38,465 nt of DNA. Source: Coriobacteriales bacterium (GTDB lineage Bacteria; Actinomycetota; Coriobacteriia; Anaerosomatales; JACRBU01). The DNA is taken from positions 1 through 38,465 of the forward strand of contig JACRBU010000053.1 in NCBI GenBank assembly GCA_016213085.1. The letters run 5' to 3'. The position numbers were made by a program. Positions within the stretch are counted from its first letter, which is position 1. Each line of letters opens with the position of its first letter. Positions 21,001 through 27,000 of the stretch are shown one piece after another.

Positions 21001-24000
21001 CGGCGGACTTCGTCGCTCGGCGGGATCGTGCCGAGCAGCGGGATATCGCCGAGCTTCTCGCGTACGAACGCGATGTCGGCGGCGTCCTCGGTCTTGTTGG
21101 CGACGGCGACGACATCGTGAACGCCGATGTCGTGCGCGAGATCGCTCACGTGATGCGCGGTCTGGATCGAGCGCATGCTCGGCTCGACCACGACGATGAA
21201 GAGGTCGACGCTCTCGGCGGTCCCTCGGCCGAGGTGTTCGATGCCAGCCTCCATGTCGAGGATCACGGCGTCGTCGCCATCGACCATCAGATGCCGAAGG
21301 AACGCCTTGAGGAAGGTGCCTTCGGCGCACATGCAGCCTGAGCCGCCGCGGTCGACGGTGCCCATCTTGAGCAGCGTGACCCCGTCGATATCGGTCCCGC
21401 AGAGATCGACCACGTCGTCGACCTCAGGGTTGAGGCGGAACATGCCGCCGCGGCCCGGGCGGGCGCCCGTGCGCTCCTCGATGAGGTCGTCCTGCATCGA
21501 AAGGGGCGTGCACGCGTCGTCTAGCTCCGGCGTCGCGCCGAGAGCGGTCGCGAGGTTGGCGTCCGGGTCCGCGTCGATCGCGATGACACGGCGGCCCTGC
21601 TCGGCCCAAAGCCGAGCGAGGCCGGACGACAGCGTCGTCTTGCCTACGCCCCCCTTGCCCGAGATGGCGAGCTTCACGCGCTCACCTCCTGGGCGAGGCC
21701 GGCGGCCTCGAGGACCTCGGGAACGAGATGCTCGGCGCCGACCGCCATGATGTGCACGCCGTCGCACACATCGCGGACATCGTTGATGAAGCGCGCGGCG
21801 ATCTCGATGCCGGTGCGCGTGGGGTCTTCGGAGGCCTCGAGTTCGGCGATGAGCGCGTCTGGCACGGTGATGCCGGGGATGTTGCGGTTCATGAACGAGG
21901 CCATGCGGGCCGAACGCAGGACAACGATGCCGGCCAGGACTTTGACGTCGAAGTGCCGCGCGAGTTCCATGAAGGACTTGAAAGACTCGGGATCGTAGAC
22001 CGCCTGCGTCTGGAAGTAACGCGCTCCGGCCTCGATCTTCTTCTCGAACTTGGCGAGCTGCGGCTTGACGGGCACCGCATCGGGCGTGACAACGGCGCCG
22101 ACGTAGAGCTCCGGCGTGCCGTGAAGCTCCTTGCCCGCGAAGTCGGTCCCCTTCGTGAGGGTCTCTATGACCTCGAGCAGCTGCACGGACTCCAGGTCGA
22201 AGACCGCCTTCGCCTCGGGGTGGTCGCCGACGACGACGTGGTCGCCGGTCAGCGCGAGCACGTTGGCGATGCCGAATGACGCGGCGCCGAGTATGTCGGA
22301 CTGGATGGCGAGGCGGTTCCTGTCGCGGCACGTGACCTGGTACACGGGCTCGTGACCCGCGTTGACCAGGTGGACGCACGCGGCGAGTGTGCAAAGCCGC
22401 ATGACCGCGGCCTGGTTGTCGGTGACGTTGAGCGCGTCGACGCGCCCGCGCAGCAGCTCCGCGGTCTCGAGCATCTCGGCGACGTCGGTGCCCTTCGGCG
22501 GGCCGACCTCGGAGGTCACGACGAAGCGGCCGCTCTCGAATGCGTCACGAAGGCTCATCGCGCACCTCCTTCGCCGGACAGGTCGAGCTTGTTGTAGGTC
22601 GTCTTCACCGAGTTGTCCTTTGGCTGGATGATCTCCTTGAAGTCCTCGGGGCGCTCGAGCGTTTCGAGCCGGTCGTAGATCTCGACCCACGCGCACGGGC
22701 GGTCGCCGAGCTCGCACTGACCATTGTTCACGCCACCGCACGGGCCGTTGAGGATGCCCTTGGCACAGCGAGTGACCGGGCAGATGCCTGCGGTCTGGCC
22801 GAGCACGCACTTCCCGCACGCGGAGCACTCGGCGCGCCACGAGGCGAAGCCTTGCGAGGCGCCGATGAAGAGCGTATCGAGCGCGGGATACACGGGCTTG
22901 TCGGCGCTCTCCGAAAGGAGCGCAACGCCGGCACCACAGCCGAGCGAGAGGATGGCGTCGTAGACCCGGTCATCTAGGTGCTCGATGAATTCGGGCTCGC
23001 ACTGGCGCTGCAGAACGCACCCCGAGAATTCGGTGGTCTCGCCCTTGCGGCGCATCGTGAGCTTCAGCAACTCGATGAGCGTGTCGACTTCCTTCTCGCC
23101 ACCGGCCAGAGCGACCGCGGCGCAGGTGTTGCAGCCGACGAGCAGCACGTTGCGGTGGCGCGCGACCATCGAGCAGATCTCTTCGACGGGCTTCTGGCGG
23201 ACGACGATCATGAGGCAGCACCGCCCTCGGCGACGCCTTCGCCCTGCGCGGCGACTTCAGCGGGCTCTTCACCGCTGACGTCGAAGGCGTCTTCCATGCC
23301 GATCTCGGTGTGGAGCGACTTGATGCGCGCCACGCGGGCGGCGACAAGCGGCATCGCGTTCGGGAAGCGGCACATGTTCTCGTTGCATCCGGAGAACACC
23401 ACTCGATGCGCGCCGGATTGCAGGGCGTCGAGAACCGCGGCTTCGCTCACACGCAGCAGACACGGAACGGAGATGATGCGGGCCTTCTCGCCGATAACGT
23501 CGAGCAGGTCGGGCGTGTAGCCGCAGACGAACGCAAGCGTGGTGTCGAGTTCCGGGTTGAAGAGGCAGCGGTCGACGCGTCGTTGCAGCTCGGCGTCGTT
23601 GCAGCCCTCGAGCTGGATCGCGTGAGCGGGGCACTGCGATGCGCACGCACCGCATGCGTGGCAGAGGTCGGCGTCGAAGTAGAGATAGCCGCCCACCTCC
23701 CCCGAAGGCGCGCCGTGGGGGCACACGCGCATGCAGGTCAGGCACGCGGCGCACTTCTCGCGCGTCAGGCGGGCGCCGGTCGTGCACGACAGACAGCGCT
23801 GCGCCTCGCGGGCAGCCTCGTACTCGGTGTAGCCGAGTTCGACCTCGTCGAAGTTCTTGACGGCGTCGTAGAATTCGACGCGCTCCATCTCGACACGTCG
23901 TCGGGTCTCGAGCTTCTGACCCATCGCGTCGGGAACCTTGCTGAGCACGGCGTGCTCTTCGTCGAGCTCGTCGATGATGTCTGAAACGCCGGTCAGGTCG

Positions 24001-27000
24001 CGGTAGATGAGCGCTGCGGCTCGCTTGCCCGCCGCGATCGCGTCGATGACCTTGGTGGGGCCGCTGACGACATCGCCCGCGGCGTAGCAGCGGTCGGAGC
24101 CAGCCGTCAGCGACAGCGGATCGACGTCGATCGCGCCACGCTGGGTGAGCGGCAGGCCGAGGTCGGCGACGTCGGCACCCTGGCCGATAGCGAAGATCAC
24201 CGTGCCGCCGTAGAACTCCTGTACGTTGTCCTCGTTGAAGGTGGGGGAGAAGCGCTTGTCCACGTCGAACACCGACGTGCACCGAGTGACGCGAAGCCCC
24301 ATGACCTTGTCTTCGCCGAGGACCTCGCGAGGCCCCCACGAGCAGTGGATGCGGACTCCCTCGAGTTCGGCCTCTGCGATCTCCTCGTCGGAAGCGGGCA
24401 TCTCCTGCGCGCTCTCGAGGCAGATGAGGTCGACGCGCTTCGCGCCCTGTCGGCGCGCCGTGCGGGCGACATCCATCGCGACGTTGCCGCCGCCGATGAC
24501 GATCACCGACTCCGCTAGCTCGACGTCCTCACCGCACGCGCTGTCGGCGAGGAAGGGAAGGGCCGTCAGCACGCCGGGCAGGTCCGATCCCGGGATCGGC
24601 AGCGGACGGCTCGCCTGCAGGCCGGCGGTCACCAGAACGGCGTCGAACCGCTCGCGCAGCTCGTCCATCGCGATGTCCGTGCCGACCTTGACGCCCGTCT
24701 CGACCTCGATGCCGTACTCGAGGATGTGATCGATGTCGCGGTCGAGCGCCTCGTCGGGCAGACGATAGTTCGGGATGCCGTAGCGCAGCATGCCGCCGAG
24801 CTTCGGCTTGGATTCGAAGATCGTCACCCCGAGGCCCAGTTCGGCCAGGTCGTGCGCTGCGGAGAGCCCTGCAGGGCCGCCGCCGACGATGGCGACGCTC
24901 TCGGGACGGCGGCGCGGCCGAAGCACTGCCGGATACGCGCCGTGGTCCGCGGCGGCCCGCTTGAGCGAGGCGATGGCGACCGGCTGGTCGAGCTGACAGC
25001 GACGGCATCCCTCTTCGCACGGGCGCAGGCACACGCGCCCGCATACGGAAGGCAGCGGATTGCGCTCCAAGACCGTCTCGAGAGCGTCGGTGAACCTGCC
25101 CTCGCCGATGGCCGTGATGTAGCCAGGCACGTTGATGTGTACGGGGCAGGCGGCACGGCACGGCGCGAAGAGCTTGCCGGTCGAGCTGCCCACTTCCTCT
25201 TGTACGCGGGGCGTGTTCATGGCGGATCCGATCAACGTGTACTCCGCTAGCTCGCGCGCTTCTTGACGAAGGCGCCGAGGTCAGCCGCTTCGTACGGTCC
25301 GACGACGACGTTCCAGCCGTCGAGTTCCTCCTTGAGTTCGCCGGAGATCTGCGCGACCGCGCCGGGGATGATGACGTCGCGGTGGGAGACCTTCTCGGCG
25401 ATGCCGGAGTCGTTCACGAACTTCGCGATGCGCTCGGGTACGAACTTGCCGGCTGCCCATGCGGTCAGCACCGAGAGCCCCTCGGACTCGACGATGCCGA
25501 GGTACATCGGCACCTTGGCCGTTTCGATCTCTGAGGAGACGATGAAGTACGTGAGCGAGAAGTTCGTCGTGACGACGAAGGGGGCGTCCGGCCCAGGCGT
25601 GCCGATCTCGTAGATCTTGGCTTCGGCCTGCATCGGGCGCTGGGGGTCGGTGTAGATGTTCTGGCGGGCGACGAGCAGCGGGAGCATCTGCCACGCCTCG
25701 GCGCTCGACAGAACGATGATGGAGCCGTACTTGAGCAGGTCGGCCGTGGCGTAGACCGTCTCGAGCATCTGGTCACCGCCGGAGATCTCGGCTGGGAAGG
25801 TGATCACGGGGTAGCCCAGGGGTGCGAACTTCTGGTTGAGCGCCGCGCGGCGCGCGAAGACGTGGTCGCGAAGCGCCTCGCCCGCGGTCGTCGGGGCGCT
25901 GTCGATCACGAGGTCGGTCAGCCCCGCGTCCGCCGCCTTCTCGGTGAGCGCCGAAAGGGCCTCGAGGCCCTTGGCGCGGATCGCCAGCGGAACACTGTGC
26001 TTCTTGGCGAGCTCGATCATGGCGTCCGCGTTCGACTCCGTGGCAGCGTGCAGCAGCGGCTTGCTGCTCGCAATGGCCCCGAGCGCTGCTTCCGCGTGAG
26101 CCGGGTCCTCGGTGACGAGGACGACGGGCACGTCCGCGGCGGCGACCTTGCTGGCGACCTCGGCGAAGCGAGCGGCATCGCCGGTCGAGCGTACGGCGAG
26201 GAAGCCGCAGCGCAGGCGCTGCTGGACGCGCTCGAAGTCGGCGGCCTTGCACGCGGCGATGGCGGCGTCGATCTCGCCGTCGGACGCGCCCGAGTCGATC
26301 GACGCGCCGAAGGCCGCCGGGTTCACGAACGTCTTGTCGTGGCGGAAGAGCACCGTCTCCTCGCCGACCGTGAACGCCGAATCGCCGACGCCGACGGTCA
26401 CCGCGCGCATGGGCGGCGCGGCGGCCGAGGCGAGCTGCGCCTTGGCTTCGTCGGAGACGTAGGGGCACAGCGTGAGCTCGGCTTGCCCCTGCGCGAGCTT
26501 CATGGCGAAGGCGAGGCACGTCGGGGTGCCGCATTCGCCGCAGTTCGTCTTCGGCAGGAGCTTGAAGATGTCGAGTCCAGTGAGAGCCATCGGTTGTCCT
26601 CTCGCGTACGTGTCAGGTCGGAAGCGTCTAGAAGAGCGGGTCCATCGTGAGCGCCGGGTGGCCCTGGGCGGTGAGGAACTCGAGGACCGCGTCCTCGCTC
26701 TCACCGACGGACTCGTCGGCGATCATGTCGAGGAAGTTCGGGATGCCGAGCTCTTCGATGCGGGGCGCGAGCGAGCTGGCCATCGCGTCCTTGAGCTCCT
26801 TGGGCATCCAGACGATGCGGGCGAGTCCACCCTCCGCGGACATGAACTTCTTGGAGGCGATGTAGCCGCGGCCGATGCCCATGAAGCCCGGCGCCTGGAC
26901 GCCGCCGCCGACCATGCCGGCAAGCGTGGAGAACTTCATGCCCGAAGGCGTCATGCCGGCGTACTCGCGGTTGACGATCATGACGCCGTTGCACATCGGC

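What a model noticed while it worked through the whole genome (the two positions that open the first line are those of the whole stretch)
21674..25220. A fifth type of methylene-THF reductase: MetVF with a single GltD/NfnB-like-ferredoxin-MvhD polypeptide
Inside the Wood-Ljungdahl cluster, metV-metF follow a 670-aa gene that fuses a GltD/NfnB-type NAD(P)H flavoprotein, a 2[4Fe-4S] domain and an MvhD [2Fe-2S] domain. This protein likely replaces HdrABC-MvhD as a one-chain NAD(P)H input to MetVF, possibly bifurcating electrons to ferredoxin. It would be a compact new MTHFR type beyond the four described, and a simpler model for energy coupling at this step.
Evidence so far: Pfam: Fer4_20, Pyr_redox_2, Fer4, FlpD 578-644 over cut-off; PDB hits are Nfn/Stn-type flavoproteins. 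Full-length (about 62-68% identity) in 35 of 146 order genomes, partial in 2 more; metV directly follows it in 10 of 10 genomes checked. metV overlaps it by 4 bases in G000 (genes.tsv). Types I-IV in PMC8760232 (passages, call 145) do not include it; Hakuba actinobacteria use hdrA-mvhD-metVF-hdrCB (PMC7325909, passages, call 138).
(Added by a program. Inside this text positions count along the whole contig: contig position 1 is position 1 of the stretch shown here. "Call 12" and the like, gene names such as g00115 and contig names such as C1 are that model's own, and its searches are not shown. The text may have been shortened before it was handed on; [...] marks where a part breaks off. The agent that wrote the report below was given it as the finding of a first reader that could run no searches.)

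Follow-up and report, generated by a model that had tools for sequence, protein, structure and literature searches.

The report
Stripped-down NADH feed for folate reductase
In the CO2-fixation gene cluster of this anaerobic bacterium, one iron-sulfur flavoprotein sits directly before the two genes of methylene-tetrahydrofolate reductase and likely feeds them electrons from NADH along a single unbranched wire, a compact make-up that the four listed types of this enzyme do not include.

Summary
A 670-aa gene (X, 25220-23208) joins a GltD-type FAD module, a 2[4Fe-4S] ferredoxin and an MvhD domain, and overlaps metV, which overlaps metF. acsC-X-metV is kept in 30 of 30 loci; 37 of 38 acsB-bearing genomes of the order carry X. 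The same arrangement occurs in 12 other actinomycete families and in Nitrospirota-like contigs. X is not an NfnB: it has Lys87 where bifurcating NfnB has Glu (Lys as in non-bifurcating StnC), lacks NfnL Arg333, and has CLE instead of YRR. Its closest long relatives are Moorella-type HdrA proteins: X equals their NADH-binding GltD domain (44%) plus their C-terminal ferredoxin (48%), fused to MvhD, without the HdrA flavin cores and HdrBC. Most likely it is a non-bifurcating NADH input to MetVF: built from type IV parts, working like type III. A binding prediction (ferredoxin-MvhD with MetV) gave weak support only. No enzymology exists; I found no paper describing it. This scan reported the same arrangement before on other genomes. 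Verdict: a real, widespread, undescribed variant; bifurcation to ferredoxin is unlikely.

The parts
23208..25220 (-). Gene X, 670 aa: GltD-type FAD module + 2[4Fe-4S] ferredoxin + MvhD domain
   Evidence: AlphaFold2 model mean pLDDT 87.4, pTM 0.86
23775..25178 (-). GltD module of X (residues about 15-482), StnC-type topology: two cysteines of one cluster (C476, C479) come after the flavin domain
   Evidence: aligned over its length to 9bov_A, 9n5u_A, 8oh5_C; residues 451-481 align to the N-terminus of NfnB 4ylf_B; 44% to residues 163-647 of the Neomoorella thermoacetica 1487-aa protein P0151
24960..24962 (-). Lys87, equivalent of StnC Lys170 (non-cysteine ligand of the FAD-proximal cluster; Glu in NfnB)
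   Evidence: counted by hand on the alignment; K in 229 of 231 relatives, 2 gaps; PMC10482914 passages
24390..24422 (-). CLE at 267-269 in place of YRR, and Ser277 in place of NfnL Arg333
   Evidence: CLE in 225 of 231, Arg at 277 in 0 of 231; P0151 also has CLE, the genome's own NfnB has YRR and Arg
23586..23774 (-). 2[4Fe-4S] ferredoxin domain of X (C490, 493, 496, 500, 520, 523, 526, 530), like the C-terminal ferredoxin of Moorella-type HdrA
   Evidence: 48% to P0151 residues 1420-1480; the eight Cys kept in 228-229 of 231
23256..23546 (-). MvhD-like domain of X with four Cys (C566, C587, C612, C617)
   Evidence: FlpD over cut-off; PDB hits are MvhD chains, three Cys aligned; all but C587 invariant in 45 aligned relatives
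22555..23211 (-). metV, 218 aa
   Evidence: PF12225; 12 invariant Cys in 41 relatives; no PDB sequence match
21674..22558 (-). metF, 294 aa
   Evidence: PF02219; weak PDB match to Thermus MetF
25247..26587 (-). acsC, upstream neighbour
   Evidence: PRK04165 over cut-off; upstream of X in 30 of 30 loci
20022..21677 (-). cooC and acsE, downstream neighbours
   Evidence: follow metF in 9 of the 10 wider regions fetched (L056 covers only the upstream part)

Best explanation
X is likely the NADH-oxidising subunit of a three-protein methylene-THF reductase (X-MetV-MetF) that would pass electrons down one unbranched chain without bifurcation. Predicted path: NADH gives a hydride to the FAD of the GltD module; single electrons run over the Lys87-ligated cluster, the second module cluster, the two ferredoxin clusters and the MvhD [2Fe-2S] cluster to the clusters of MetV and the flavin of MetF, which reduces methylene-THF (-320 to -200 mV, downhill). 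Shown: gene order, overlaps, domain content, conserved ligands, co-occurrence with acsB, homology to the Moorella HdrA parts. Inferred: NADH rather than NADPH, complex formation, the order of the wire, lack of bifurcation, the reductive direction. In parts it is type IV without the HdrA flavin cores and HdrBC; in function it would equal type III, with X in the role of RnfC2.
For: Synteny: acsC-X-metV in 30 of 30 loci; metV follows in 22 of 24 loci from 12 other actinomycete families, the other 2 cut by contig ends; in 54 of 58 scorable metagenome loci found with a Nitrospiraceae-labelled relative (46 adjacent, 8 with a gap, 4 without; 22 of 80 too short). 37 of 38 acsB genomes of the order carry X, the 38th contig ends inside acsC. 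MetVF of this kind have no NADH site and need a feeder (PMC8760232, passages). The 120 best longer relatives are 1370-1658-aa proteins, many named HdrA-like, among them the 1487-aa N. thermoacetica protein, whose GltD domain shares Lys, CLE and 44% identity and whose C-terminal ferredoxin shares 48%; Moorella HdrA oxidises NADH at 190 U/mg (PMC9430772, passages). G496 (same phylum) has the long form hdrA(1510-aa frame)-mvhD-metV-metF-hdrC-hdrB. Non-bifurcating marks: Lys87 = StnC K170, whose FAD does not bifurcate (PMC10482914; PMC12018979); no Arg333, said to be highly conserved only in bifurcating enzymes (PMC12921514); the genome's own NfnB shows E, YRR and R as a control. [quoted passage not shown] The same module is inserted in NuoI of a complex I operon without nuoEFG neighbours in 21 of 21 loci, the behaviour of a portable NADH input. 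Binding prediction ferredoxin-MvhD with MetV: weak support, score 0.46 against best control 0.00; the mark was reached by 116 of 157 solved complexes and 2 of 215 mismatches, but at 0.60 or under by only 18 of the solved and both mismatches; runs agree in 100% of contacts, partner pLDDT at least 84; no MetV structure is in the PDB by sequence.
Against: No biochemical data and no cultured carrier identified here. The Moorella complex, with the same module, did not reduce methylene-THF with NADH (PMC8760232), so the module alone may not suffice. The link between CLE and NADH rests on Moorella HdrA and on general knowledge of Rossmann folds, not on a tested motif; which Moorella domain binds NADH is a prediction. 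The paper on archaeal NfnABC says the meaning of Lys versus Glu ligation is 'far from clear'. 36 of 231 relatives have Gly for MvhD Cys617, so the [2Fe-2S] step may not be universal. Three actinomycete relatives carry YRR, one of them also Glu (L187, L191; L190). G000 has a second metV-metF beside lpdA. The structure tool gave no coordinates, so cluster distances were not measured.
Confidence: 0.62

Rival explanations
1. X-MetVF needs a second, membrane-side partner: the MvhD domain would dock the reductase on a quinone-linked or complex I-like membrane complex, and NADH electrons would be combined with or diverted to that partner, as proposed for type IV enzymes.
For: MvhD was 75% in membranes in Sporomusa and proposed as membrane linker (PMC9430772); menaquinol plus NADH confurcation is proposed for Moorella (PMC13391211); the window encodes a nuoA-N operon without its own NADH module downstream of the cluster.
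Against: Those proposals rest on the HdrA flavin, which X lacks; no HdrA flavin core was found in G000 (90% complete). A single MvhD domain would have to bind both MetV and the membrane partner. The Nitrospirota-like loci annotated (L116, L069) show folate and panB genes, no membrane complex, beside X.
Confidence: 0.14
2. X bifurcates at its own FAD like NfnB: one electron of each NADH pair goes to MetVF through the MvhD [2Fe-2S] cluster acting like NfnA's, the other to ferredoxin.
For: Fold and FAD site are homologous to NfnB, and the R201-equivalent (R153) is kept. A [2Fe-2S] domain is present in the chain. One actinomycete relative (L190) has Glu and YRR. With -320, -200 and about -450 mV (last value recalled) the reaction would be near equilibrium, not excluded.
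Against: Lys87 for Glu, no Arg333, best solved relatives are the non-bifurcating StnC/NfnA modules, which also keep the R201-equivalent. The ferredoxin domain begins a few residues after C479, i.e. at the far cluster, and MvhD follows it in series, leaving no second exit from the flavin (inference). L190 also lacks Arg333.
Confidence: 0.07
3. Same unbranched wire, but the donor is NADPH, or the enzyme mainly runs backwards (methyl-THF oxidation to reduce NAD+) in acetate or methyl-group oxidation.
For: All solved GltD-type relatives use NADPH; YRR variants of X exist. Type III can run backwards when the product is removed (PMC8760232).
Against: This protein and 225 of 231 relatives have CLE, which removes both arginines and adds an acid, and share it with NADH-oxidising Moorella HdrA. 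The reverse reaction costs +23 kJ/mol (PMC13391211).
Confidence: 0.11
4. X is in the operon but serves another step (reductant for CODH/ACS, corrinoid reactivation, or the MvhAG hydrogenase) and MetVF works alone with ferredoxin as a type II enzyme.
For: X also abuts acsC in this order; MvhD normally binds hydrogenase, and G000 has mvhG-mvhA elsewhere; purified MetVF pairs accept electrons from ferredoxin.
Against: Where acsC is not the upstream gene (Nitrospirota-like loci, L169, L185) X still precedes metV; the hydrogenase has its own ferredoxin-MvhD gene; the long homologue is a shown MetVF partner in pull-downs.
Confidence: 0.06

Closest known systems
Type IV MTHFR, HdrCBA-MvhD-MetVF of Moorella (Neomoorella) thermoacetica
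   Same: MetV, MetF, MvhD directly before metV; GltD-type NADH domain (44%, Lys and CLE shared) and C-terminal ferredoxin (48%) of its 1487-aa HdrA (PMC9430772).
   Different: X lacks the N-terminal part and both thioredoxin-reductase-type HdrA flavin cores; MvhD is fused; no hdrB/hdrC in the cluster; 670 aa against HdrA plus three more subunits.
Type III MTHFR, RnfC2-MetV-MetF of Acetobacterium woodii
   Same: Three genes, one NADH-oxidising Fe-S flavoprotein feeding MetVF; non-bifurcating (PMC8760232).
   Different: The feeder is unrelated: RnfC-type FMN protein there, GltD-type FAD module with an MvhD adaptor here; no rnfC over cut-off in G000.
StnC (Sporomusa ovata) and NfnA of NfnABC/Bfu (PDB 8oh5, 9bov, 9n5u)
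   Same: Best sequence and fold matches; same topology, Lys-ligated proximal cluster, FAD at the start of a single path.
   Different: They bind NADPH (YRR), carry NuoG/FdhF domains and feed a HydBC-type bifurcating module, not MetVF.
NfnB/NfnL of NfnAB (PDB 4ylf, 5jca)
   Same: GltD fold, two clusters, R201-equivalent.
   Different: Glu ligand, Arg333, YRR and the NfnA partner are all absent from X; order of the cluster cysteines is permuted.
HdrL (HdrA/glutamate synthase fusion, Desulfobacterium autotrophicum)
   Same: GltD-type NADH site followed by ferredoxin and an mvhD gene (PMC2702500, passages).
   Different: HdrL keeps the HdrA cores; the passages read do not place it beside metF.

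Membership tests
Type IV MTHFR | metV and metF in the cluster | tested here: met
Type IV MTHFR | MvhD | tested here: met
   present as a fused domain with four Cys
Type IV MTHFR | HdrA with thioredoxin-reductase-type (bifurcating) flavin core | tested here: not met
   X aligns only to P0151 163-647 and 1420-1480; the core (922-1410) finds only short nucleotide-binding matches in G000; HdrA2 profile finds no intact core; no order genome gave a match beyond P0151 131-650 at E 1e-120
Type IV MTHFR | hdrB and hdrC in the cluster | tested here: not met
   none among the 37 window ORFs scanned; CCG domains in G000 lie on two other contigs, not examined further
Type III MTHFR | RnfC2 subunit | tested here: not met
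   no match over the TIGR01945 cut-off in G000; X is GltD-type
Type III MTHFR | NADH-dependent, ferredoxin-independent methylene-THF reduction | not testable with these tools
   needs enzyme assay
Bifurcating NfnB/NfnL | Glu ligand on the FAD-proximal cluster | tested here: not met
   Lys87; K in 229 of 231; own NfnB has E
Bifurcating NfnB/NfnL | Arg333 | tested here: not met
   Ser277; Arg in 0 of 231; PMC12921514
Bifurcating NfnB/NfnL | Arg201 hydrogen-bonded to FAD N5 | tested here: inconclusive
   R153 is kept, but so is R239 in non-bifurcating StnC; geometry not measurable here
Bifurcating NfnB/NfnL | adjacent NfnA partner gene | tested here: not met
   PF10418 hits lie on C8, C81, C151, none on the window's contig
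StnC/NfnA-type non-bifurcating GltD module | Lys-ligated proximal cluster and permuted topology | tested here: met
   (K87 = K170)
StnC/NfnA-type non-bifurcating GltD module | NuoG/FdhF domains and YRR (NADPH) | tested here: not met
   absent from X

The most novel reading that the evidence does not exclude
X-MetV-MetF is a distinct, three-protein class of methylene-THF reductase used by Wood-Ljungdahl bacteria of several phyla, and the core from which type IV is built by adding HdrA flavin cores and HdrBC; its NAD(P)H head is exchangeable (NADH-type, NADPH-type, and in one genome a Glu-ligated NfnB-like form), and some members may bifurcate or couple to a membrane complex with a single flavoprotein chain.
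Probability: 0.2. Interest if true: 0.8.

Novelty: new variant of a known kind. Interest (0 to 1): 0.55.

Why it matters
How methylene-THF reduction is fed with electrons, and whether it conserves energy, is an open question in acetogenesis; type IV has not been purified as an active NADH-linked complex. X is a natural minimal version: it keeps the NADH module, the C-terminal ferredoxin and MvhD, and drops the parts thought to bifurcate. Three genes (about 3.5 kb) can be expressed and assayed, which would show whether NADH to MvhD to MetVF is a free-running wire and hence what HdrA cores and HdrBC add in Moorella. It also fixes the energy budget of Wood-Ljungdahl actinomycetes and Nitrospirota, whose genes are now named 'FAD-dependent oxidoreductase', 'glutamate synthase beta-like' or 'formate dehydrogenase beta', and offers a compact NADH-linked MTHFR for engineered CO2 fixation.

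Tried and rejected
P0089 (882 aa) looked like a natural X-MetV fusion; it is a frameshift artefact in G092, where MvhD reads in another frame and ends just before metV. The species-genome pattern scan returned 20 loci of other GltD-module proteins, none with metV/metF; close relatives were withheld there. Trees of the GltD module did not give the direction of change: CLE-type modules form one clade against YRR-type ones (SH-aLRT 100), CLE-type X proteins (with L187) form a clade with support 60 only, and all X together are rejected as one clade (p-AU 0.0015) because L190 and L191 group with YRR modules (73 and 82 rows chosen by hand from the hits; group named after seeing the tree); so 'X arose by deletion from long HdrA' and 'long HdrA grew around X' both stand. 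The MetV model was middling (pLDDT 69) and its fold search gave nothing above background (best Z 8.1). No RNA holder was listed. Promoter and terminator scans were at chance level. Ten paper searches found no description of the fusion; Jiao et al. 2021 (ISME J) and Mock et al. 2014 were not held, figures and supplements were not seen, and the legend of Fig. 2 in PMC7325909 lists a 'gltD' among CODH/ACS neighbours, which may be this gene drawn without comment. ORF 35369-35959 overlaps fhs in another frame and has no Pfam match: not a gene.

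
Full report
Observation. The window holds a minus-strand Wood-Ljungdahl cluster: fhs, acsV, folD, acsD, cooS, acsB, acsC, gene X, metV, metF, cooC, acsE, then a NuoE/NuoF-like pair, a formate dehydrogenase and a nuoA-N operon. X runs from ATG 25220 to 23208 and gives 670 aa. It carries Fer4_20, Pyr_redox_2, Fer4 and FlpD domains over cut-off. X overlaps metV and metV overlaps metF by ATGA. An AlphaFold2 model on a 45-row alignment is confident (mean pLDDT 87.4, pTM 0.86).

Distribution in the order. Of 146 genomes, 35 have a full-length match. Three more (G092, G108, G053) hold all domains with frameshifts. 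In all 30 loci returned, the order is acsC-X-metV. acsB is found in 38 of 146; 37 of these carry X, and in the 38th (G074) the contig ends inside acsC. One X genome (G085, 65% complete) has no acsB match but has acsC beside X. These genomes are kin, so the counts are not independent.

Wider distribution. A profile search of 401 genomes of the phylum returned 24 loci outside the order, from 12 families; metV follows X in 22, and the other two end at contig ends. Proteins with the same three domains are labelled Thermoleophilia, Gaiellales, Nitrospirota, Planctomycetota, Poribacteria, Dehalococcoidia and Pseudomonadota (context not checked for the last four). With a Nitrospiraceae-labelled relative as query, 80 metagenome loci came back; 22 were too short to score, and of 58, metV was adjacent in 46, a short way on in 8 and absent in 4. 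In two of these loci annotated, the neighbours are cooC, folate genes, panB and thyX, with no hdrB or hdrC. X therefore travels with metV, not with acsC.

What X is made of. The 120 best relatives among longer proteins are 1370-1658 aa, many named HdrA-like, including the 1487-aa protein of Neomoorella thermoacetica (P0151), whose length matches the type IV HdrA described in PMC9430772 (passages). [quoted passage not shown] X residues 20-504 match P0151 163-647 at 44%, and X 489-549 match P0151 1420-1480 at 48%. In type IV clusters mvhD comes next, then metV and metF. X is thus the GltD domain plus the last ferredoxin of that HdrA, fused to MvhD, without the HdrA flavin cores. A genome of the same phylum, G496, has the long form hdrA-mvhD-metV-metF-hdrC-hdrB (hdrC and hdrB named from their motifs), the order reported for the Hakuba actinobacterium (PMC7325909, passages and part 1 of section 14). 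G000 has no intact HdrA core by two searches (90% complete), and no order genome matched P0151 outside residues 131-650 at E 1e-120. Trees could not tell which form is older.

Bifurcation. The best solved relatives by sequence and fold are StnC and the NfnA chains of NfnABC, ahead of NfnB/NfnL. In StnC the FAD does not bifurcate, and the cluster next to it is held by Lys170, where NfnB has Glu (PMC10482914, passages); the archaeal NfnA has the same Lys and one path from its FAD, although that paper calls the meaning of the ligand far from clear (PMC12018979, passages). Counting on the alignments, X Lys87 is StnC Lys170, and X Ser277 is NfnL Arg333, a residue said to be highly conserved only in bifurcating enzymes (PMC12921514, passages). 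Among 231 relatives have Lys87 (2 gaps) and none has Arg at 277. The genome's own NfnB, beside an NfnA-type gene, shows Glu, YRR and Arg, so the test separates the two kinds. The R201-equivalent is kept but is not diagnostic. The ferredoxin starts just after the cysteines of the far cluster, and MvhD and this ferredoxin lie in series in HdrA complexes (PMC9012536, passages), so I infer one chain. Against a flat rule: L187 and L191 have Lys with YRR, and L190 has Glu with YRR but no Arg333.

Cofactor. The NADPH-using solved relatives have YRR after the second nucleotide-binding strand; X has CLE, as do 225 of 231 relatives and P0151. That the arginines bind the 2'-phosphate is recalled, not found in the paper searched. 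Loss of both arginines, gain of a glutamate and sharing with an NADH-oxidising protein point to NADH. The same module type is inserted into NuoI in a second complex I operon in 21 of 21 loci examined, which fits a portable NADH input.

Binding. One prediction of the ferredoxin-MvhD part (478-652) with MetV, both as alignments, gave weak support: 0.46 against a best control of 0.00; the mark was reached by 116 of 157 solved complexes and 2 of 215 mismatches, but at 0.60 or under by only 18 of the solved and by both mismatches; runs agree in 100% of contacts, partner pLDDT at least 84. No MetV is in the PDB by sequence. In Sporomusa, MvhD pulled down MetF. The four MvhD cysteines are present here, but 36 of 231 relatives, several labelled Thermoleophilia, have Gly for the last.

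Mechanism. Most likely NADH to FAD to four [4Fe-4S] clusters to the MvhD [2Fe-2S] cluster to MetV to MetF to methylene-THF, downhill by about 120 mV (PMC8760232, passages) and not energy-conserving by itself. Any bifurcation in this cluster would more likely be done by the NuoE/NuoF-like pair with formate dehydrogenase, whose NuoF has the extra thioredoxin-like and ferredoxin domains of HydB (inference). The main caution is that the Moorella complex did not run NADH to methylene-THF in vitro; Thermacetogenium, with hdrA and mvhD but no hdrBC beside metVF, gave NADH-linked activity in one fraction and no sign of bifurcation (PMC6895022, passages).

Novelty. Four MTHFR types are still listed in July 2026 (PMC13391211, passages). 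Ten full-text searches found no description of the fusion; other papers seen as passages only (PMC5736913, PMC9586279, PMC2702500, PMC9686372, PMC4758237, PMC11287216) do not describe it in those passages. Most subscription papers, Jiao et al. 2021, Mock et al. 2014, all figures and all supplements were not seen, and may bear on this claim. The scan's own notes hold 20 findings with the same words, 8 shown, most describing this arrangement in other genomes; they are not independent support. X fails membership in types III and IV and in NfnB, yet is built wholly from type IV parts and would work like type III: a new variant of a known kind, widespread and easy to test.

Noticed in passing
L031:6171-8957 (G000:C116) and L142-L161; also L195-L199, L205: A paralogous GltD module (His at the Lys87 site, CLE/SLE/ALE) is inserted inside nuoI, between nuoH and the nuoJ-L side of a complex I operon, in 21 of 21 order loci and 6 loci of other families. 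It may be the NADH input that replaces NuoEFG; PMC9686372 says the cultured Anaerosomatales lack NuoEFG and need other donors. PMC4758237 mentions a gltD-like protein replacing NuoI in mbx-like operons.
   Followed up: partly
window 14479-17211 (-): Formate dehydrogenase read as two ORFs split by an in-frame TGA at the CARL*HS active-site motif, likely selenocysteine.
   Followed up: partly
window 17672-20010 (-): NuoE-like and HydB-like NuoF genes right after acsE, then the formate dehydrogenase; kept after acsE in 8 of the wider regions fetched from the order. Likely a HydBC-type (Bfu) bifurcating formate dehydrogenase. A CBS-domain gene (17208-18104 ORF) lies between them here.
   Followed up: partly
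window 2860-14339 (-): nuoA, B, CD, H, I, J, K, L followed by three more antiporter-like subunits, one more than the usual M and N; G000 has at least three complex I-like operons (C198, C167, C116).
   Followed up: no
L165:6599-9695 (G000:C176): A second metV-metF pair (40% and 49% to the window's) directly followed by a dihydrolipoamide dehydrogenase-like gene, with a lipoyl synthase-like gene nearby.
   Followed up: partly
L164:3294-7268 (G000:C50): A 559-aa HdrA-MvhD fusion with a decayed flavin core precedes mvhG and mvhA of a [NiFe]-hydrogenase.
   Followed up: partly
L187, L190, L191: X relatives with an NADPH-type YRR motif; L190 also has Glu at the cluster site. L190 and L191 group with YRR modules in the tree, suggesting a swapped head.
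   Followed up: partly
P0271 and 35 others; L180, L181: A subgroup, partly labelled Thermoleophilia, has Gly in place of the last MvhD cysteine.
   Followed up: no
L022 and L167 (G141); L166 (G056): G141 has two copies of acsC-X-metV on separate contigs; G056 has a second acsB-cooS set without X beside it. May be duplication or binning contamination.
   Followed up: no
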